Origin: a virus
Taxonomy: Duplodnaviria; Caudoviricetes
IMG/VR virus record: IMGVR_UViG_3300036824_000022
Span: 1-33,392 of that record
Length of the DNA: 33,392 nucleotides
Strand: one strand, 5' to 3'
Positions 5,696 through 31,981 of this stretch are shown one piece after another. Position 1 is the stretch's first letter; the number at the start of each line of letters is the position of its first letter. A program made the translations under genes and the position numbers. The notes under the pieces are model-generated. The model had not been told where the DNA came from. It was given only the letters and a program-made list of their open reading frames with translations, and searched no databases.

Positions 5696-5851
5696 TCAAG
5701 AACCTTTCTTCTTCCGTAGGATGCCAGTTTTGGCATCCGCCTTGTTGAACTCCTTGGCTACGCCTTGAGGCACTCCAACCTTCTTAGCAAACGCAGGGTT
5801 ATGCGCTGCGCCTGCCATGAGACGGGCTTGAGGTTTGGATTTGCTTGGCAT
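5696..5851 (-). CDS. Small basic phage protein (51 aa)
   Basis: Hand-translated MPSKSKPQARLMAGAAHNPAFAKKVGVPQGVAKEFNKADAKTGILRKKKGS. TGATG-coupled; resembles a recurrent small podovirus structural-region protein. Confidence 0.75.
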   Translation of the reverse strand: MPSKSKPQARLMAGAAHNPAFAKKVGVPQGVAKEFNKADAKTGILRKKKGS

Positions 5852-6552
5852 CAGACTCTCCGACTCATCATCTTGTTTAGAGTCTTCTTTTGCTCTGCAA
5901 CTTCCTTAGCAGCTGCGATTGAGGCTGACTCAGTTAGTTCAGCCTCGGTCACCTCAGCTTCAGGAAGAGGCTCTTCCATATAGACCGGAGGTTTCTCACC
6001 AAGAGCCTTAGCCTGGCGCGTAAGTTCATCCTCATTTGAAGATACCTTTCCGGCAAGCAACGCCAACATCTGTTGGTTCTGAGCCATCATCATGGTCATA
6101 GCTTCGAGGAACTTCTCCATGCCGTGGGCTTGTGGGGCCGAAGCGGCATCGGCTTTCATGTCAGTGAGATGATTCACCAAGCGGTCCCCAAGCTTCGCAT
6201 AGAAGCTAGCTCGCTGAGATTCCTCATCCGTGCCTTTAGTTGGGGTCCAATCATACTTGGCGGATTCGGCTTTGGCTTCATCATCAAGAGGAAACATCCC
6301 AGGAGTGGGCTGACCTTCAAAGGTGATGTCACCATCTTTGCCTTTGCCGGGCCAGCAGATATGGATTTCGCCATCCATCTGATTATTGGCTGGGCGATGG
6401 TTCCAATCATCTTCGACTCGAGGGTCCAAGTGTTTTGGAACCTTGAATGTCTTACGGACTGGTTTGCCGGTGCGCGCGTCGATAGCGGTGTGCTCCCAAC
6501 GTTCGTCGGGGCAGTTTAGGTAGTGAGGTTCAGTTAGTTTCCATCTTGCCAT
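5851..6552 (-). CDS. Hypothetical protein
   Basis: 233 aa with strong AAGGAG SD; acidic C-terminal half; ends MSRRV. Confidence 0.75.
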   Translation of the reverse strand: MARWKLTEPHYLNCPDERWEHTAIDARTGKPVRKTFKVPKHLDPRVEDDWNHRPANNQMDGEIHICWPGKGKDGDITFEGQPTPGMFPLDDEAKAESAKYDWTPTKGTDEESQRASFYAKLGDRLVNHLTDMKADAASAPQAHGMEKFLEAMTMMMAQNQQMLALLAGKVSSNEDELTRQAKALGEKPPVYMEEPLPEAEVTEAELTESASIAAAKEVAEQKKTLNKMMSRRV

Positions 6553-18959: not shown

Positions 18960-19571
18960 TCAGCCATCTCCCCCTCCATCACCGCCAGGGACCAGCGGGA
19001 CCGGCGGTATCGGCTTTGCGTCTATGACGTTGGAGCGGCCAGAGGCACGAGCCATCTCTTCCATCACGGCGGCGAAGTCTAGGTTTTCGTTTCGCTGAGT
19101 TGACTTCTTGCCGTAGCCGAAGCGGTCGGCACGGTCACCCACAAGGGCCAGGAGGGTCTTGAGTGGGAGCAGTTCGTCAGACTCATCGGAACGATCAAGG
19201 TGCTCTTCGATTTGGCGTTCGGCCCTCCGCATGTTTGAGGTTGCGGTTTCCCAGAACTCATCCTGGGCTGAGACGAACGCCGAATCTATTTTTTCTTTAT
19301 ACATCGCCACCAACTCTTGAAAGGCGGGGTCGGAGCGGATTGTGTAGAAGCGAGTTCCGCTGTAGCCGGTTTGGGTGAGGATGTCTTCGGTGCGAAGCCC
19401 AGCCGCGACCATCCGGGCCAGGCGATGGTGAGACTCACGCATGGCCTTTGGCCTGCCTTGAGGCGGACGTGGGGCCTGGAGAGCCTGCATATCCTCACGC
19501 GTGAGCGGCCGCACACCCAAGACCTTTGGGGTGCGTGCCAACTTGCCACGATGAAGAACAGGTGCGTTCAT
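18960..19571 (-). CDS. Putative terminase small subunit
   Basis: HTH-like segment HHRLARMVAAGL..EDI...TGYS..R......DPAFQELV followed by helical region; directly upstream of terL. Confidence 0.55.
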   Translation of the reverse strand: MNAPVLHRGKLARTPKVLGVRPLTREDMQALQAPRPPQGRPKAMRESHHRLARMVAAGLRTEDILTQTGYSGTRFYTIRSDPAFQELVAMYKEKIDSAFVSAQDEFWETATSNMRRAERQIEEHLDRSDESDELLPLKTLLALVGDRADRFGYGKKSTQRNENLDFAAVMEEMARASGRSNVIDAKPIPPVPLVPGGDGGGDG

Positions 19572-19972
19572 AACCTTCTTACCATATAGGGGCCAACCGG
19601 CCCCCGGAACGTGTCTCGGTCTGGTGGAAGTTGTGGCGTGATCAACGCTAACAATCTCTTGATATCCTCAGGGATGACCAAAGCTCCTCGATCAGGATTG
19701 TGCACGATATTATACTTGGGCCGGTACTTCCGAATGTACATCTGCTCAAGGGTATCCAACTGCCCAAGCATACACCCAAGAATCCAAACGCTATCAAAAG
19801 ACATCTTAGGGACCTGCGCAATCCCTTTCATCACAAACCCTCGATGCTCAAGCAAGCGCCGCAACGGCTTCTTACTCTTCCCGATATAAACCACTTCCCC
19901 TCTTTTCACAAGCGCATACACCGCACAGTGCAGCACCTGCGAAATCTCCAAAAACCCATCATCCTTAAGCAC
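19568..19972 (-). CDS. GIY-YIG family nuclease (catalytic domain only)
   Basis: AVYAL...VVYIGKS...RRLLEH...LEQMYIRKYRPKYN contains all core GIY-YIG motifs. Confidence 0.8.
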   Translation of the reverse strand: MLKDDGFLEISQVLHCAVYALVKRGEVVYIGKSKKPLRRLLEHRGFVMKGIAQVPKMSFDSVWILGCMLGQLDTLEQMYIRKYRPKYNIVHNPDRGALVIPEDIKRLLALITPQLPPDRDTFRGPVGPYMVRRL

Positions 19973-22877: not shown

Positions 22878-23090
22878 TACCAGCATTAGTGCAGCTTGAA
22901 TGAGCAATGATTGAGTCTGAGGACACGTCGCAGCGTAACCTCAAACGGAGATTGTCAGGATCACTCAAGTACTTTAGTTTCGGCGCCAGCAGTGCCAACC
23001 CCTGAGCTTCCCTACGGGTACATCCCGCAAGGTCTCAGGGGTCTTCTATAGACGCAGGGAATGAGCCCTGCGTAACGGAGACCATGCCAA

Positions 23091-23927
23091 ATGACCAACC
23101 CAAACGATATCTCTGCTGTGCTACTTAGCATCAGCGAAGCCAAGCGAGCCTTAGATGCTGAACCTCAATATCGCAGGCACATTCATGAGCTTGAGCAAAA
23201 GCTCATCATCGATGGCCAAACCATCGCCAGTCGTGAACAACGCATCCATGAGCTGAAGCAAAGCGAGGAGGCACTCCAAGCCAAGCTGCGTTCGGTGGAG
23301 GCCGAACGCGATGAGGCTGGCTTTCGTGCTTTGGAAGAGAGCGACAAAGTGTCGGCTTTGTCTACACTTGTGCGTAGCTACGTCGGAGACTGTCTCAAGA
23401 CTCTTGCGGCGGTTGAGGGTAAAGCCCCACCACTCCTGATTGCCAAGGATGAGTATGATAGTCTCATTCAGGCCAATAAGGATTTGGACAAGCGCATCAG
23501 CGAGGTTGAGTATGAGCGTGACTCTGCCAGAGCTAACGATGAGCTGGCTCAAGCTGCACTCAAGGCGGCAAGGGAACAGCTTGAACGAAAGCCTGATCCA
23601 AGCCCTTTAGGCGTCACCATAGATACTCCCCACAGCGAGCCCACGGCTTCTTCACTTGGAGAGACCACATCTTCGGGGAGTGGTGAGAGTGCAACGGACC
23701 CTACTCCTGCCGAAACCTATGGTGCCCCAGCCCATGGTTCTGTAACCTCGCAGGACGCTGTTCCTTCAAATGAGGTTCAGAGTGCCATCCCCCCTTCCCA
23801 GCCCGCTACCACAACTACATCAAGCGATATCACAACGGTCAGTGGTGGTACCGGGCAGGGCCAGACTGGAGAGCCTGTGAAGCAGACTGACAAGGAATGG
23901 TGGGAAGAAGTTGTAAGGCAGAGCTAA
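23091..23927 (+). CDS. Coiled-coil protein with disordered Ser/Thr-rich tail
   Basis: Heptad-rich first ~165 aa, low-complexity tail ending EWWEEVVRQS. Confidence 0.75.
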   Translation: MTNPNDISAVLLSISEAKRALDAEPQYRRHIHELEQKLIIDGQTIASREQRIHELKQSEEALQAKLRSVEAERDEAGFRALEESDKVSALSTLVRSYVGDCLKTLAAVEGKAPPLLIAKDEYDSLIQANKDLDKRISEVEYERDSARANDELAQAALKAAREQLERKPDPSPLGVTIDTPHSEPTASSLGETTSSGSGESATDPTPAETYGAPAHGSVTSQDAVPSNEVQSAIPPSQPATTTTSSDITTVSGGTGQGQTGEPVKQTDKEWWEEVVRQS

Positions 23928-23942
23928 CCCTACCTCCCCAAC

Positions 23943-23971
23943 TGGCCAGCGCAAATGCTGGCCATTTTTTT
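23943..23971 (+). terminator. Rho-independent terminator
   Basis: TGGCCAGC-gcaaat-GCTGGCCA followed by T7. Confidence 0.9.
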
Positions 23972-24010
23972 GTCCATTGTTTACTAGGTATACCAGGGAA
24001 TTATTTTATT

Positions 24011-24039
24011 CTTGACTTTTCAAAAAAAAAGAGTATAAT
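24011..24039 (+). promoter_or_regulatory. Rightward promoter P2
   Basis: cTTGACT-tttcaaaaaaaaagag-TATAAT, near copy of P1, with AT-rich upstream element. Confidence 0.85.
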
Positions 24040-24064
24040 AGTACCTATAATCGAGAGCCATGCC

Positions 24065-24436
24065 ATGAAATATGAATGCCTGTACTGCGGAAGGCCTTTT
24101 ACTAAAGAAGGTAAGTATACATGTGACTGCGCTCGGCATGTATACAATCCAAAGGCAGCCGCGAAATCGTACGATAGTCAGAACTACAACAAAACCCATG
24201 GTGCTAGGCGCGGCTATGGCACTCGCTTATGCGATTACTGTGGTAGCGAATTTAAACCACCACGATCAAATGCATATTGCTGTTCACCTCAATGTGTAAC
24301 ACTTAAAAACAATCCAACATTAACATTTCACGAATGCAAATGGTGTGGCAGCGAGTTTTTAGCTCCGAGAATTACAAGGATATACTTTTGTTCTCCACAG
24401 TGTCAGATTTTAAAACAGTATAATGGAAAATTCTAA
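24065..24436 (+). CDS. Tandem Cys zinc-finger protein
   Basis: CxxCG.[PE]F three times, two followed by CSPQC; AT-rich gene directly after P2. Confidence 0.7.
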   Translation: MKYECLYCGRPFTKEGKYTCDCARHVYNPKAAAKSYDSQNYNKTHGARRGYGTRLCDYCGSEFKPPRSNAYCCSPQCVTLKNNPTLTFHECKWCGSEFLAPRITRIYFCSPQCQILKQYNGKF

Positions 24437-24636
24437 TGCTTTCCAAGCGAGCGACAGAGCTACAGCCCGGAGATAGGCTCTATTACACTGACGAAGTGGT
24501 CATCCGCACATTTAAAGACAAGATGACAAAGCCTTATTACATTTGTGTATTGCTTCGCAAGGGCCAGCGGGAGCGCTTGGCACACTATCGTATCTATGCC
24601 TTCATTCTAATCGTGAGAGGGAGCCATGCAGTTTGA
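24436..24636 (+). CDS. Hypothetical protein
   Basis: 66 aa, TAATG-coupled; RATELQPGD start. Confidence 0.55.
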   Translation: MLSKRATELQPGDRLYYTDEVVIRTFKDKMTKPYYICVLLRKGQRERLAHYRIYAFILIVRGSHAV

Positions 24637-24796
24637 TGCCTATACAGTTTATTGTGAATGGTGCAAAGAGCACCACTACGCTGTACCTACCCGCGCGTGG
24701 TGGGACGCCGCTTGCGCCAAGGCAAGGACCATTCACTATACAGATGAGTCTGAAATGGACATCAGGCGTGAACGTAGAGAGGGATGGGCAAAATGA
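24626..24796 (+). CDS. Small CxxC/His protein (56 aa)
   Basis: Hand-translated MQFDAYTVYCEWCKEHHYAVPTRAWW...; GAGGGAG SD; ATGA-coupled to the next ORF. Confidence 0.55.
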   Translation: MQFDAYTVYCEWCKEHHYAVPTRAWWDAACAKARTIHYTDESEMDIRRERREGWAK

Positions 24797-25296
24797 CCCT
24801 ATACAACTGCCGACACTCTGGGGACCAGTATCGCATCTCTAAGTTCGACGATGATATGAATGTTGAGTCATCCTATCTATGCACCCTCGCAGAGTGTGAT
24901 TGTCCTGCAGGGGTACGACCAACCTGCCGACACAGGCAAATGCTCCCACGCTTTATAGACAGGGAACATGTTGGGGATGAGTGGTTCTTTGACTTTGACA
25001 GGGGCGGATGGGTGCAGATGGGGCAGGAGTGGATTGAGTCTGAGGAACCCTTAGTTGATGTAATGGAGAGTAGCTCAGTGGTAGAGCAAGGGAATCATAA
25101 TCCTTTGGTCGCAGGTTCAATCCCTGCCTCTCCAACCATCACCTTCGTTGAAGTACCACAGTTGCCAGAAGGCGTGACCATGATTGTGATGGATCATCCT
25201 GACAAGGTGGTTGAGGTTCACAATGCTATTGCAGATGCAGTGGGTGAGCCAGAAGCGAAGCTACCTGCAAAACGCTACATGCAAAGGAGGCTCTAA
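24793..25296 (+). CDS. SWIM zinc-finger protein containing an in-frame tRNA sequence
   Basis: Y.C...ECDCPAG..PTCRH matches the SWIM CxCx(n)CxH motif; ends YMQRRL with TAATG coupling. Confidence 0.7.
   Translation: MTLYNCRHSGDQYRISKFDDDMNVESSYLCTLAECDCPAGVRPTCRHRQMLPRFIDREHVGDEWFFDFDRGGWVQMGQEWIESEEPLVDVMESSSVVEQGNHNPLVAGSIPASPTITFVEVPQLPEGVTMIVMDHPDKVVEVHNAIADAVGEPEAKLPAKRYMQRRL
25064..25138 (+). tRNA. tRNA with CAU anticodon (elongator Met or Ile2), CCA encoded
   Basis: Acceptor TGGAGAG/CTCTCCA (7/7), D arm GCTC-AGTGGTA-GAGC, anticodon stem AGGGA/TCCTT with loop ATCATAA, T arm GCAGG-TTCAATC-CCTGC, then A-CCA. Position 32 is A, which is non-canonical. Confidence 0.85.
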
Positions 25297-25430
25297 TGCC
25301 GATACCTAAGGATGGTGGTGAAGCCCATGCCAAAGGCTTCAAGCTTGAGGATAATCCATTCCCTAAGCACACACCCGACCATTCAATGTGGCGTGATGAT
25401 TGGCTCTTTGCAGCTGGGAGGTTTCGATGA
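25296..25430 (+). CDS. Rmf/CrpP-like micro-protein (44 aa)
   Basis: MPIPKDGGEAHAKGFKLEDNPFPKHTPDHSMWRDDWLFAAGRFR fits G..A...G.....NP[FY].......W...W; AGGAGG SD. Confidence 0.55.
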   Translation: MPIPKDGGEAHAKGFKLEDNPFPKHTPDHSMWRDDWLFAAGRFR

Positions 25431-25723
25431 ATGCCACCGTTGCTAAAAGCGCCGCGCCACCACACGCAGTGATGGTCTGGGCGGATGAGCGAAACATCTA
25501 CGCTCAGCTACCTTCGATCAACGGCCCATACGTAGCCTGCTTCCCACGCTCCGAAGGAGGCCTCTCACAATGCCTGCATCACCTTGGCGCGATGCATGTG
25601 GAACACTCCGGCGAAGTCTACACTCGACCCAACTATCCTTCCAAGGAACTTGTGAAACAAGGCCTTACCCAAAACGACCGCGACGTGGCGCATATGGTTC
25701 TGAAGAAGATGGGAGTTATATGA
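25427..25723 (+). CDS. Hypothetical protein
   Basis: MNATVAKS...; GGAGG SD; ATGA coupling. Confidence 0.65.
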   Translation: MNATVAKSAAPPHAVMVWADERNIYAQLPSINGPYVACFPRSEGGLSQCLHHLGAMHVEHSGEVYTRPNYPSKELVKQGLTQNDRDVAHMVLKKMGVI

Positions 25724-25899
25724 TGCCAAGAGTGGCTGAGATAAAGGAAATTAACGGTCAGATTTGGGCAAGGCTTGAGACGGAAAGTGATGAGGGTGTA
25801 GTCACGTTATGGACTCCTACTGAGATCGAGGAACACAGAATAACCAGCGTCAGGGACTTTCTAATAGATCAATTCAACGCATGGAAGGACCGACAATGA
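25720..25899 (+). CDS. Hypothetical protein
   Basis: MMPRVAEIKEING...; coupled at both ends. Confidence 0.6.
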   Translation: MMPRVAEIKEINGQIWARLETESDEGVVTLWTPTEIEEHRITSVRDFLIDQFNAWKDRQ

Positions 25900-26144
25900 C
25901 CCAACGCAGTGATATTATCTCCGACGAACGCCTTCAAGAGCTAATCTACCTTCACAAAGGCCTCTACGGAACTATACGAGGCCTCACCAACAACCCGCAG
26001 GAGTTCATAACCGTCTTATCCATGCTACACCTCACGGTGTGGCTCAATGAAGGTGATGGCTCCGCAGATGAAATGCTTACGATATACTGCGATAACTTCC
26101 GAAAGAACTGTGCTTTGAATGCCGGGATGGAGACGCAGCAATGA
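25896..26144 (+). CDS. Hypothetical protein
   Basis: MTQRSDII...; ATGA coupling. Confidence 0.6.
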   Translation: MTQRSDIISDERLQELIYLHKGLYGTIRGLTNNPQEFITVLSMLHLTVWLNEGDGSADEMLTIYCDNFRKNCALNAGMETQQ

Positions 26145-26605
26145 GTGATCCATACTATGGCGTGTGGCCACAGTTTAACATCTCCGCAGAGGATATTGCT
26201 ATGGCACCTGAGCCAGAACAGAAACCTGAGTGTAACATGAATGAACCTTATCTAATCGCCCACAAGGTCTGTGGCTGCGCCGCGTTTGATATTGCGATAC
26301 AGATGGAGTGTCCTGAGTGCATTGACAAGTCTGATGATTTTAATTGCACCGAATGCGACAATCACTGGGTATGGTGGATCATTCCAACCTCTGGGCACAG
26401 GGCTTATCCTTATTGGTCTATTGAATTAGACGCAATCTACTATGATCATCCATTATATGATCACATAAGATTGCTTGGCGAAAAAAACGTGCCGCCTATG
26501 CCCGAAGTTTGGCCCGATCACTACGCCCACGGCCCAGCCCCGAAGCTTGATATCAAATCCCTCTTCAAGGCTTTGCCTAAGCCAACCATACCAAGGAGAT
26601 TGTGA
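26141..26605 (+). CDS. Hypothetical protein with CxxC...CxxC zinc ribbon
   Basis: CPEC...CTEC; ends IPRRL. Confidence 0.65.
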   Translation: MSDPYYGVWPQFNISAEDIAMAPEPEQKPECNMNEPYLIAHKVCGCAAFDIAIQMECPECIDKSDDFNCTECDNHWVWWIIPTSGHRAYPYWSIELDAIYYDHPLYDHIRLLGEKNVPPMPEVWPDHYAHGPAPKLDIKSLFKALPKPTIPRRL

Positions 26606-28905: not shown

Positions 28906-29075
28906 CAGATCGATTAATCGACATCGCTGCCAAGATCAGAGTCGAGACCGACAAAGCTTGGAAGATATACGACGGAAGCAAAACTGAATGGGTGCCCAAG
29001 TCTCAAGTCGAGCGTAACGACGACGGCACCTTCACCATGCCTGAATGGCTTGCTTTGGAAAAGGGGTTTATTTGA
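28902..29075 (+). CDS. Conserved small phage protein (57 aa)
   Basis: Hand-translated MTDRLIDIAAKIRVETDKAWKIYDGSKTEWVPKSQVERNDDGTFTMPEWLALEKGFI; ETxKA...W.PKSQ...MPEWLA.EKG is a recurrent phage family pattern. Confidence 0.75.
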   Translation: MTDRLIDIAAKIRVETDKAWKIYDGSKTEWVPKSQVERNDDGTFTMPEWLALEKGFI

Positions 29076-29356
29076 TGAGCGATACCGATCCAGCATTCGA
29101 CTTGAACGAACTCATGAGCCGTTCTAGGGAAGAGTTATTGATCTTGCCTAGAGAGGACTTGGACAGAATAATTGCCCACCAGCGTAAGTATCGTATGCAG
29201 CGTGAAGCTGGCGGGAAGGCTAAGAAGGTCACAGGCGAAGCCCCAGCGGTGGATATCAAGGCGCTCATGTCACAGATACAGAAGCCTTCAGCAGTGAAGT
29301 TGCCTGAGAATAAACCAAAGCCACTTGCAAAGGGTGGATTCGTAAGGAGGTTTTGA
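29075..29356 (+). CDS. Hypothetical protein
   Basis: MSDTDPAFDL...; TGATG coupling; K/P-rich tail ending FVRRF. Confidence 0.65.
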   Translation: MSDTDPAFDLNELMSRSREELLILPREDLDRIIAHQRKYRMQREAGGKAKKVTGEAPAVDIKALMSQIQKPSAVKLPENKPKPLAKGGFVRRF

Positions 29357-30697: not shown

Positions 30698-31116
30698 TGC
30701 CCAAGCCAACGATCTGTATCGACTTCGACGGAGTCATCCATTCTTACGAAAAAGGTTGGTGCAATGGAAACATCTATGGCACAGTAACGCCTGGATTCTT
30801 TGAGTGGGCCAGCGTGATGAGAAAGCACTTCCTGCTGGTGATCTATTCTTCCCGCAGCAAGGATGTGGATATGAAAGCAGCCATGTGGCATTGGCTCAAG
30901 AATCAATGGGGCCAGTGGGCTCATGGAAGTGGGCGCCCCTTCAATCATGAAGTGGACGTGAGCTATGCCGACTTCGAGTTCGCTTCTGAAAAGCCCCCCG
31001 CGTTCATGACCATCGACGACCGTGCTATCTGCTTCGACGGCGACTGGTCCAAGATCACACCAGAGTCGATCTTTAACTTCAAGCCATGGAACATCAAAAA
31101 TGCCAAGTCTAGCTGA
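30697..31116 (+). CDS. HAD-superfamily phosphatase/nucleotidase
   Basis: ICIDFDGVIH (motif I), IYSSR (II), KPPA (III) and IDDRA (IV). Confidence 0.85.
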   Translation: MPKPTICIDFDGVIHSYEKGWCNGNIYGTVTPGFFEWASVMRKHFLLVIYSSRSKDVDMKAAMWHWLKNQWGQWAHGSGRPFNHEVDVSYADFEFASEKPPAFMTIDDRAICFDGDWSKITPESIFNFKPWNIKNAKSS

Positions 31117-31981
31117 CCACAAATCCAACTCTTTGGTTAAGGTCCTCTATTTAGGAGACGCAAAAAGTGGCAAGACAACCTCACTGGTATCGCTTGTCCG
31201 TGCTGGCTATCAGCTTCGCATTTTGGATATGGATAATCTACTTGATTCTCTAAAGTATGCTGTCCAGCAGGAATGCCCTGACAAGCTTGGCAACGTAGAG
31301 TTTCGTACCCTACGGGATAAATACAAAGCCGGACCTTTGGGCCCAGCCATTGATGGTACCGCCATGGCCTTCATCAATGCCATGAAGATGATGGATAACT
31401 GGAAGTACCAAGACGGCGACGCCTTAGTTGAGTTTGGGCCACCTAAGTCTTGGGGCCCAGATTGTATCCTAGTTTTAGACTCACTCTCACGTCTCTGCGA
31501 CGCTGCCTATGACTACCACGCACAGATGATAAAACCAGGAAAAAGTGGTGAAGTGGATGGGCGAGCCATCTATGGTCAATCACAAGACGCTATAGAGATG
31601 GTCCTTGCCAACCTTACTTCATCTACCTTCGAGACAAACGTTATAGTCATCTGTCATGGCATGTATATGGAATTGCCTGACGGGCAGAAGATATTTCCGC
31701 AGGGAGTAGGGCAGAAGCTCTCACCAAAGATACCTCAATACTTCCCTGTCTATATCCGCTTACGCAACATGGCTGGGAAGCGAACGCTACAGCTTGAAAG
31801 CGACTCCATGATCGACTTGGCAATGCCTAAGATGAAGGCCTTTGAGACAAAGACCCTTCCTGCTGAAACGGGCCTTGCCACGATCTTTGAAACACTACGG
31901 GCCCAACCCGTGGTTAAGCCACAGCCAGCCGCACCTGTGGTAGCACGACCCAAAGCGGTAGTTTTGCAAAGGAGAGTTTGA
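31100..31981 (+). CDS. AAA-type ATPase (Sak4/RecA-like recombinase candidate)
   Basis: GDAKSGKTT, ILDMDN, LVLDSLS and VIVICH; sits between an exonuclease and an SSB-like gene. Confidence 0.8.
   Translation: MPSLADHKSNSLVKVLYLGDAKSGKTTSLVSLVRAGYQLRILDMDNLLDSLKYAVQQECPDKLGNVEFRTLRDKYKAGPLGPAIDGTAMAFINAMKMMDNWKYQDGDALVEFGPPKSWGPDCILVLDSLSRLCDAAYDYHAQMIKPGKSGEVDGRAIYGQSQDAIEMVLANLTSSTFETNVIVICHGMYMELPDGQKIFPQGVGQKLSPKIPQYFPVYIRLRNMAGKRTLQLESDSMIDLAMPKMKAFETKTLPAETGLATIFETLRAQPVVKPQPAAPVVARPKAVVLQRRV

What the first reader, a model, noticed from the sequence alone, without database searches (positions are those of the whole stretch)
25064..25138. Complete tRNA(CAU) embedded in frame, same strand, inside a protein-coding gene
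Seen: a full cloverleaf with encoded CCA lies within the SWIM-finger ORF and translates without stops (MESSSVVEQGNHNPLVAGSIPASPT). It is exactly 75 nt, so precise removal keeps the frame (GTA A|TC ACC). The ORF continues to a coupled stop ending YMQRRL. All stems are intact, but base 32 is A instead of a pyrimidine. Inference: dual-use DNA in which tRNA processing would cut the mRNA, a tRNA variant evading anticodon nucleases, or a tRNA recently absorbed as a protein linker.
Basis: partly seen in the sequence, partly recalled or inferred. Interest (0 to 1): 0.78.

Follow-up and report, generated by a model that had tools for sequence, protein, structure and literature searches.

The report
Swappable tRNAs inside a phage gene
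A complete tRNA gene sits in frame inside the flexible linker of a small soil-phage protein gene, and relatives carry different tRNAs in the same linker, so this DNA likely makes both a protein and a working tRNA that is probably cut out of the messenger RNA.

Summary
Confirmed, and family-wide. An intact tRNA(CAU) at 25064-25138 lies in frame, same strand, inside a 167-aa SWIM-type phage gene. The protein module after it is under purifying selection (pN/pS about 0.12). In the window plus 127 related loci, 21 of 22 tRNAs lie inside this gene; DNA shows Gln, Met, Tyr and Leu. Peptides suggest Cys, two more CAU types and a tandem pair. In 9 of 10 phage records with a tRNA, the nested one is the only tRNA. 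Sixteen nested tRNA-Gln variants keep 99.4% of pairs, with compensation at 13 of 20, while their peptide is unconstrained (pN/pS 1.13). Near-identical proteins differ in carrying one, so it behaves as an exchangeable linker cassette. A32 is normal for the alphaproteobacterial elongator tRNA-Met class, the 75-nt length is incidental, and no integrase was found. Likely mechanism: host RNases excise the tRNA from an early polycistronic mRNA whose frame stays open; expression is untested. Closest precedent: selC nested in selB (Mukai 2021). This scan has already noted nested tRNAs in other phage genes, but not in this family.

The parts
24012..24039 (+). sigma-70-type promoter-like site (TTGACT-16-TATAAT, 11 of 12 matches), likely start of the early operon transcript carrying the tRNA; follows a terminator-like hairpin at 23943-23964
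   Evidence: consensus match only; two more sites with the same hexamers at +20928 and -20034
24793..25296 (+). host gene: 167-aa SWIM-type zinc-finger protein with hypervariable linker; start overlaps the upstream stop (ATGA), stop overlaps the downstream start (TAATG)
24793..25032 (+). folded N-terminal domain (about residues 1-80) with C35-x-C37...C45-x-H47
   Evidence: conserved columns; model pLDDT 93-98 for residues 1-80; Foldseek match to a SWIM-type protein of Rhizobium phage RHph_Y65, E 2.4e-3, TMq 0.68
25064..25138 (+). complete tRNA(CAU) gene with encoded CCA, alphaproteobacterial elongator-Met class by exclusion; read in frame as residues M91-I116, predicted coil
25165..25251 (+). 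conserved protein module after the tRNA (P125-P153, predicted helix 138-150), under purifying selection
   Evidence: pN/pS 0.12, window against 7 other loci; its core motif occurs in 107 of 372 proteins
25285..25298 (+). AGGAGG Shine-Dalgarno read as the terminal Arg-Arg, stop codon TAA and coupled ATG of the next gene

Best explanation
The 75 bases lie in frame in the low-complexity linker of a small phage zinc-finger gene and fold as an intact tRNA, and they likely serve both as linker codons and as a working tRNA-Met gene. The tRNA has no promoter-like site of its own, so it is probably transcribed in the early operon. Ribosomes would read through it to the conserved module and the coupled stop. 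On transcripts where the cloverleaf folds, host RNase P and 3' trimming would release the tRNA, with its CCA encoded, and split that mRNA. The linker is an indel-tolerant place in an operon whose genes overlap, and it behaves as a cassette site: short peptide cassettes and tRNA genes of several isotypes come and go between conserved flanks, likely by recombination. The likely benefit is early supply of a tRNA that the host lacks or destroys during infection. SHOWN: sequence, frame, recurrence, selection on the fold, selection on the protein after the tRNA, patchy presence. INFERRED: transcription, excision, charging, benefit.
For: 21 of 22 default-threshold tRNAs in 106 distinct-protein loci lie inside this ORF, which is 6.3% of the 669,950 bases scanned. 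Of 47 whole viral records, 10 have one tRNA each, and 9 of these are in this gene. All 19 distinct nested tRNAs encode CCA, and none straddles or follows the stop. In 16 Gln variants, 99.4% of 320 cells pair and 13 of 20 pairs have two-sided changes; 0 of 500 shuffles reach this. The window copy differs from the commonest host-type copy at 14 places, 12 in stems, and keeps all 21 pairs (5 two-sided changes). pN/pS is 1.13 in tRNA codons, 0.25 in the SWIM core and 0.12 in the module after the window's tRNA. The tRNA peptide models as low-confidence coil. Carriers and non-carriers share 95-99% domain identity, and linker blocks are exchanged between shared flanks. Gaps between 11 successive early genes are -11 to +2 nt. 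Phage tRNAs are reported to counter tRNA-cutting defences (PMC11555353, abstract).
Against: No RNA or peptide data were obtained. The window's anticodon loop equals the host-type loop, so loop-mutation escape does not apply to it. Its acceptor stem differs from the host class (U1-A72, G3-C70), which could lower charging (identity elements recalled, not tested). The compensations may predate capture. Most family members have no tRNA (81 of 101 complete loci). A non-nested site exists: one relative has tRNA-Pro in an upstream region (L044), so lack of space alone does not explain the preference. Many Gln copies are close kin, so the counts are not independent events.
Confidence: 0.62

Rival explanations
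1. The nesting is mainly a switch. tRNA folding and processing compete with translation, so excision would shut off the full-length protein (non-stop mRNA) and uncouple downstream genes, or stalled translation would trigger tRNA release.
For: The same model was proposed, untested, for selC in selB (PMC8124441). Several unrelated tRNA bodies ended up in this one gene rather than elsewhere. 79 of 101 complete ORFs overlap a downstream ATG.
Against: Close relatives work without any tRNA. Isotype and position vary: before the module in the window, after it in all 7 database proteins that have both. The downstream gene has its own Shine-Dalgarno. No functional link between the protein and tRNA is known.
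Confidence: 0.2
2. The cloverleaf acts without becoming a charged tRNA, as an mRNA processing signal or as a decoy for tRNA-cutting enzymes.
For: Acceptor stems of the nested tRNAs are atypical or variable: Gln first pairs G-U 9, A-U 5, U-G 1, unpaired 1 of 16, and the window acceptor differs from the host class.
Against: Anticodon, CCA (19 of 19) and the invariant D- and T-loop bases are kept. ARAGORN scores of 110-124 match host tRNAs at 111-119.
Confidence: 0.08
3. A tRNA gene was recently captured and is now a neutral passenger serving only as linker codons.
For: The window's Met-type copy has no DNA-level sister among the loci fetched, and a degenerate pattern found none in viral contigs. 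One protein (P0221) carries what looks like a partial tRNA peptide.
Against: Family-wide compensation, and synonymous change suppressed to pS 0.19 against 0.61 in the SWIM core. A second Met-type peptide occurs in a distant homologue, P0190.
Confidence: 0.06
4. The tRNA is an attP site or a compensating tRNA of a temperate phage.
For: Phage attP sites often overlap tRNA genes (PMC10865867, passages).
Against: No tyrosine integrase in 30 of 30 records searched, 18 of them at least 90% complete. No serine recombinase over cut-off in 18 (one weak hit below it). The tRNA is whole and at most 61 of 75 identical to 120 host copies, with a different 3' half.
Confidence: 0.02
5. The protein really ends before the tRNA, and the ORF through it is an assembly or annotation artefact.
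For: This tRNA class is stop-free in one frame by itself (109 of 109).
Against: The conserved module follows in frame with pN/pS 0.12. All 18 complete representative carriers listed end in the family's RR tail. The assembly is uniform.
Confidence: 0.02

Closest known systems
selC (tRNA-Sec) nested in the selB ORF of Alphaproteobacteria (Mukai 2021, PMC8124441; abstract through methods read, parts 1-2 of 3)
   Same: Whole tRNA on the same strand, in frame, in the C-terminal part of an ORF whose stop overlaps the next start. The trait is lost in relatives. The evidence is bioinformatic only, with a proposed processing-versus-translation conflict.
   Different: Here it is a phage gene with no known link to the tRNA, and canonical tRNAs of at least 4 isotypes (DNA-verified) are exchanged in one linker. 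A conserved protein module follows the window's tRNA. Gain and loss occur between near-identical proteins, and tRNA length need not be a multiple of three.
tRNA-Lys inside cox1 of Armadillidium vulgare mitochondria (seen only as cited in PMC8124441)
   Same: A tRNA fully inside a coding region in direct orientation in a compact genome.
   Different: Fixed organellar arrangement, not an exchangeable phage cassette.
Phage-encoded anti-defence tRNAs (T5 tRNA-Tyr against retron-Eco7, tRNA-Lys against PrrC: PMC11555353 abstract; anticodon-loop escape: PMC10264068 passages)
   Same: Phage-borne tRNAs of variable isotype; the nested Gln tRNA resembles T5-like and Vibrio phage tRNA-Gln at 78-84% over 55-59 nt.
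   Different: T5's lie in a tRNA-rich region; the one resembling phage locus inspected (Vibrio phage K172) is a free-standing cluster. The window tRNA has an unchanged host-type anticodon loop.
SWIM zinc finger (PF04434), as in the Rhizobium phage RHph_Y65 protein A0A7S5RGS1
   Same: CxC...CxH motif and a similar predicted fold (TMq 0.68); an Atlas cluster with 19% PF04434 members is among the look-alikes.
   Different: No Pfam hit for 32 members; long mosaic linker; function unknown.

Membership tests
canonical tRNA gene | cloverleaf with all four stems | tested here: met
   21 of 21 pairs; Rfam 68.3 bits
canonical tRNA gene | conserved U8, A14, G18G19, U33, T-loop, 3' CCA | tested here: met
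   sequence, Rfam alignment, ARAGORN 116.4 against host median 117.2
canonical tRNA gene | transcribed, processed, aminoacylated | not testable with these tools
   needs RNA data or bench work
initiator tRNA-fMet | unpaired 1:72 and three G-C pairs ending the anticodon stem (recalled) | tested here: not met
   U1-A72 paired and A31-U39; 44-47 of 75 identity to that class
tRNA-Ile2 (CAU) | body like the host Ile2 class | tested here: not met
   46-53 of 75 to the second CAU class against 58-61 to the A32 class; class names rest on recalled features
alphaproteobacterial elongator tRNA-Met | D arm, A32 anticodon loop and variable loop of the third CAU class | tested here: met
   loop differences only at two T-loop positions; class named by exclusion in 4 genomes
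alphaproteobacterial elongator tRNA-Met | acceptor stem of the host class and charging by MetRS | tested here: inconclusive
   acceptor stem differs at three pairs; charging untested
nested tRNA gene (selC-in-selB kind) | whole tRNA, same strand, inside an open frame that continues to a coupled stop | tested here: met
nested tRNA gene (selC-in-selB kind) | host protein functionally tied to the tRNA | tested here: inconclusive
   protein function unknown; isotype varies
attP / tRNA-dependent lysogeny | integrase in the genome and a core shared with the host tRNA | tested here: not met
   0 of 30 PF00589, 0 of 18 PF07508 over cut-off; no integrase among 34 window proteins scanned (partial genome); 3' half differs from the host copies sampled
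anticodon-loop escape variant | loop differs from the host tRNA | tested here: not met
   window loop identical to the host class; the nested Gln loop differs from the single host Gln(UUG) retrieved (1 of 5 genomes matched, weak)
SWIM zinc finger PF04434 | CxC-xn-CxH motif | tested here: met
   C35, C37, C45, H47 invariant in 32 sequences
SWIM zinc finger PF04434 | profile match above cut-off | tested here: inconclusive
   no Pfam hit; structural and language-model leads only

The most novel reading that the evidence does not exclude
This linker is a phage cassette site for hot-swapping tRNA genes to match whichever tRNA the host's defence destroys, and nesting makes it a translation-gated reserve: ribosome traffic keeps the cloverleaf unfolded, and when host tRNA cleavage stalls translation the naked mRNA is processed into the missing tRNA.
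Probability: 0.2. Interest if true: 0.86.

Novelty: new variant of a known kind. Interest (0 to 1): 0.66.

Why it matters
Annotation tends to treat a tRNA and a CDS as mutually exclusive, so nested phage tRNAs would be missed or would truncate genes. Here the nested tRNA is the genome's only tRNA in 9 of 10 tRNA-bearing records. The family gives natural matched pairs (95-99% identical domain, with and without tRNA, different isotypes). These make two open questions testable in a 500-bp construct: why phages carry particular tRNAs, and whether a tRNA can be excised from a translated ORF and be gated by its translation. The published bacterial precedent (selC in selB) is untested and confined to one specialised tRNA.

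Tried and rejected
A32 as a phage escape mutation: rejected. Exact 75-nt excision with rejoining: not supported; other nested tRNAs are 74 or 79 nt, and no joined form was listed in the one run laid. C-terminal RR-hydrophobic tail as a pure peptide motif: mostly explained by Shine-Dalgarno plus stop/start overlap, since six window genes end this way; 14 of 26 ATGA-class ends use a CGN arginine outside the Shine-Dalgarno, so some peptide selection is possible. Codon compensation: CAA fraction 0.606 in 9 Gln-bearing loci against 0.635 in 43 without, no support. Cultured example: Vibrio phage K172 'hypothetical protein' over a similar tRNA-Gln is a mislabelled free-standing tRNA cluster, and no cultured phage matched the protein. 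Expression: no RNA holder listed, which is no evidence either way. Protein function: nothing in PHROGs, Pfam, NCBIfam or PDB sequences; no clear PDB fold match (best Z 4.5). Folding the tRNA with flanks gave z -0.99 against shuffles, uninformative. A promoter-like site upstream was found in only some relatives and did not track tRNA presence. Single-origin test for the Gln cassette did not finish; only a quick 77-column tree exists. DNA for the Cys, further CAU and tandem carriers was not obtained. Host tRNA-Gln patterns matched 1 of 5 genomes each (only the first was read and is a tRNA). The binomial P is not quoted as evidence because carriers are related. A mistyped structure string was discarded. 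Ten literature searches listed no paper on tRNAs nested in phage ORFs; subscription journals are mostly not covered and no supplements were read.

Full report
OBSERVATION. ARAGORN reports one tRNA in the window, anticodon CAT at 25064-25138 +, and Rfam agrees (68.3 bits, E 4.8e-13). It lies within the ORF 24793-25296 (167 aa from the ATG overlapping the upstream stop), covering codons M91-I116. All 21 stem pairs form and CCA is encoded. One assembled contig of a soil run, probably the source and so not independent, covers 23900-26300 without differences. The window is a partial phage genome: head, tail and terminase genes on the minus strand, helicase, exonuclease, Sak4-like and SSB-like genes on the plus strand (34 proteins scanned). 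The capsid is 51-55% identical to phiV10/Tyrion-type phages; complete relatives are about 50 kb.

WHAT IS NOT SPECIAL. The A32 arm occurs in an estimated 1,400 stored genome stretches; most of the 80 listed are Alphaproteobacteria. Four such genomes each hold three CAU classes: an initiator-like class, an Ile2-like class (both named from recalled features) and the A32 class. By exclusion the A32 class is elongator tRNA-Met. The window tRNA matches it at 58-61 of 75 positions, against 44-53 for the other two. This class has a stop-free frame in 109 of 109 host copies, so translating without stops is expected; only 19 of 109 stay open with 90-nt flanks. An alphaproteobacterial host is inferred from this class and from a structural match to a Rhizobium phage protein.

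THE PROTEIN IS REAL ON BOTH SIDES. There are 451 homologues by phmmer and 852 cluster representatives by profile. They share an 80-residue domain with C35, C37, C45 and H47 invariant in 32 aligned sequences, a tail of 19-143 residues rich in P/E/S/T/A/D/Q/G, and often a helical module whose core motif occurs in 107 of 372 proteins. In the window this module lies after the tRNA and has pN/pS 0.12 against the 7 other loci that matched a strict pattern (uncorrected, pS near saturation). The model has pLDDT 93-98 for residues 1-80, 49-67 across 81-120 including the tRNA peptide, and a helix at 138-150. No Pfam, PHROG, NCBIfam or PDB sequence match was found. SWIM-type is a motif-plus-fold lead.

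NESTING IS A FAMILY TRAIT. I scanned the window and all 127 loci (106 distinct proteins, 101 complete). ARAGORN at default threshold found 22 tRNAs; 21 lie wholly inside this ORF on the same strand, although the ORF is 6.3% of the bases. They are 19 distinct sequences (16 Gln-UUG, 1 Met, 1 Tyr-GUA, 1 Leu-CAA), all with CCA, 74-79 nt long, in all three codon phases; none straddles or follows the stop. In whole records, 10 of 47 have an Rfam tRNA, one each; 9 coincide with the nested positions (two of these encode the same protein) and one is a tRNA-Pro upstream (L044). Peptide patterns flag 61 of 367 distinct proteins. That set is enriched, because one search used carriers as query; the less biased shares are 9 of 120 and 20 of 150. 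The patterns were written from these sequences, so their agreement with ARAGORN (27 of 27) is circular. Without DNA, peptides suggest Cys (4 proteins), two further CAU types, an unassigned type (2) and one protein, P0190, with Gln and Met tRNAs in tandem.

SELECTION ON THE RNA. Sixteen distinct nested Gln tRNAs keep a standard pair in 99.4% of 320 cells, and 13 of 20 pairs show two-sided changes; 0 of 500 shuffles and no slid control come near. In 15 same-phase loci (the 74-nt and the incomplete one left out) the tRNA codons have pN/pS 1.13 and pS 0.19, against 0.25 and 0.61 for the SWIM core. So the constraint is on the RNA, not the peptide. The window copy differs from the commonest host-type copy at 14 places, 12 in stems, with 5 two-sided and 2 one-sided changes and no broken pair. 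These changes could predate capture. Its acceptor (U1-A72, G2-C71, G3-C70) departs from the host class, so charging efficiency is open (identity rules recalled).

A CASSETTE SITE. Carriers often have tRNA-less nearest neighbours: 99% (L125/L135), 97% (L069/L063), 95% (L014/L098), 88% for the window. DNA alignments show blocks exchanged between shared flanks; in L062 against L098 the tRNA replaces a peptide block. Other recurring linker blocks vary largely at third codon positions, so they look peptide-selected. A quick tree needs 5 changes for 16 Gln rows, at least 2 forced by strong branches; it has 77 columns and the one-clade test did not finish. The different tRNA bodies imply several captures regardless. 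The tRNA precedes the module in the window and follows it in all 7 database proteins with both.

MECHANISM. Shown: the points above, a promoter-like site at 24012-24039 after a terminator-like hairpin with no comparably strong site before the tRNA, and gaps of -11 to +2 nt between 11 successive early genes. 97 of 101 complete ORFs end RR plus one or two residues and 79 overlap a downstream ATG. That tail largely reflects the next gene's Shine-Dalgarno, as six window genes end alike. Inferred from general knowledge: the tRNA is made as part of the early mRNA and released by RNase P and 3' trimming, leaving a non-stop 5' fragment and a 3' fragment with its own ribosome-binding site. The frame stays open to keep the module and coupling. 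Exchange probably uses phage recombination proteins. The benefit is most likely early tRNA supply against tRNA loss, as reported for other phages (PMC11555353, abstract). The window loop is host-like, so simple supplementation fits better than loop escape (PMC10264068, passages). Against: no expression data, 81 of 101 complete loci lack a tRNA, codon use does not differ, and L044 shows that a non-nested site is usable. The strong preference for this gene is therefore only partly explained, which leaves room for a regulatory role.

RIVALS. No tyrosine integrase in 30 records (18 near-complete) and no serine recombinase over cut-off in 18, so an att site or tRNA-dependent lysogeny (PMC10865867, passages) is unlikely. 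Artefact and neutral remnant are contradicted by the selection results. A switch (0.2) or an uncharged decoy (0.08) remain open.

KNOWN SYSTEMS AND NOVELTY. Mukai 2021 (PMC8124441, parts 1-2 of 3 read) described selC nested in selB as the first nested tRNA in a bacterial ORF, proposed a processing-versus-translation conflict, and cited a mitochondrial case. Ten searches (listings only) showed no paper on phage cases. This scan's own notes list 58 findings for these words; 8 were shown, with nested tRNAs in exonuclease, nrdJ, rtcB, ATPase and other genes, and a marine-phage zinc-finger gene appeared. None matched this family by sequence. These notes are unchecked leads and I did not test them. 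The kind is known. The variant (canonical tRNAs of many isotypes exchanged as cassettes in one phage linker, usually the genome's only tRNA) was not found in the papers I could search. Verdict: new variant of a known kind, interest 0.66.

Noticed in passing
window 22957-23085 (+), between two early genes: A conserved non-coding block, likely a structured RNA. In 8 aligned loci a 5-bp hairpin (22982-22996) with a conserved CAGYA loop is 100% paired with 3 of 5 pairs compensated; RNAalifold finds 12 of 18 pairs with two-sided changes. A possible alternative 4-bp pairing with an upstream GGAT is 81% paired without compensation. No Rfam match up to E 10.
   Followed up: partly
L044 3726-3804: The only non-nested tRNA (Pro-UGG) lies directly after what looks like that same conserved element, inside a doubtful 94-codon ORF.
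   Followed up: partly
linker of the protein family (e.g. L013, L018, L050, L084): Recurring short peptide cassettes (GLQEE-, YTTDEPP-, WGEI-, ATEVDER-type and others, 4-18 proteins each) are shuffled in different orders, vary largely at third codon positions, and were seen almost only in this gene.
   Followed up: partly
window ORFs 5851-6552, 19568-19972, 24793-25296, 26141-26605, 29045-29356, 31022-31981: Six genes end in Arg-Arg-hydrophobic, each over an AGGAG-like Shine-Dalgarno with stop/start overlap.
   Followed up: partly
window +20928, +24012, -20034: Three promoter-like sites share TTGACT-16-TATAAT; the two on the plus strand share a nearly identical A-rich spacer; a divergent pair flanks the early/late switch region.
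   Followed up: no
P0190, P0221, P0169, P0263: P0190 seems to carry two tRNAs in tandem; P0221 a truncated Gln-like one; P0169 and P0263 an unassigned tRNA-like peptide. No DNA obtained.
   Followed up: no
window 24065-24436: First gene after the promoter is a multi-zinc-finger protein with weak HNH/NinG-type PHROG matches.
   Followed up: no
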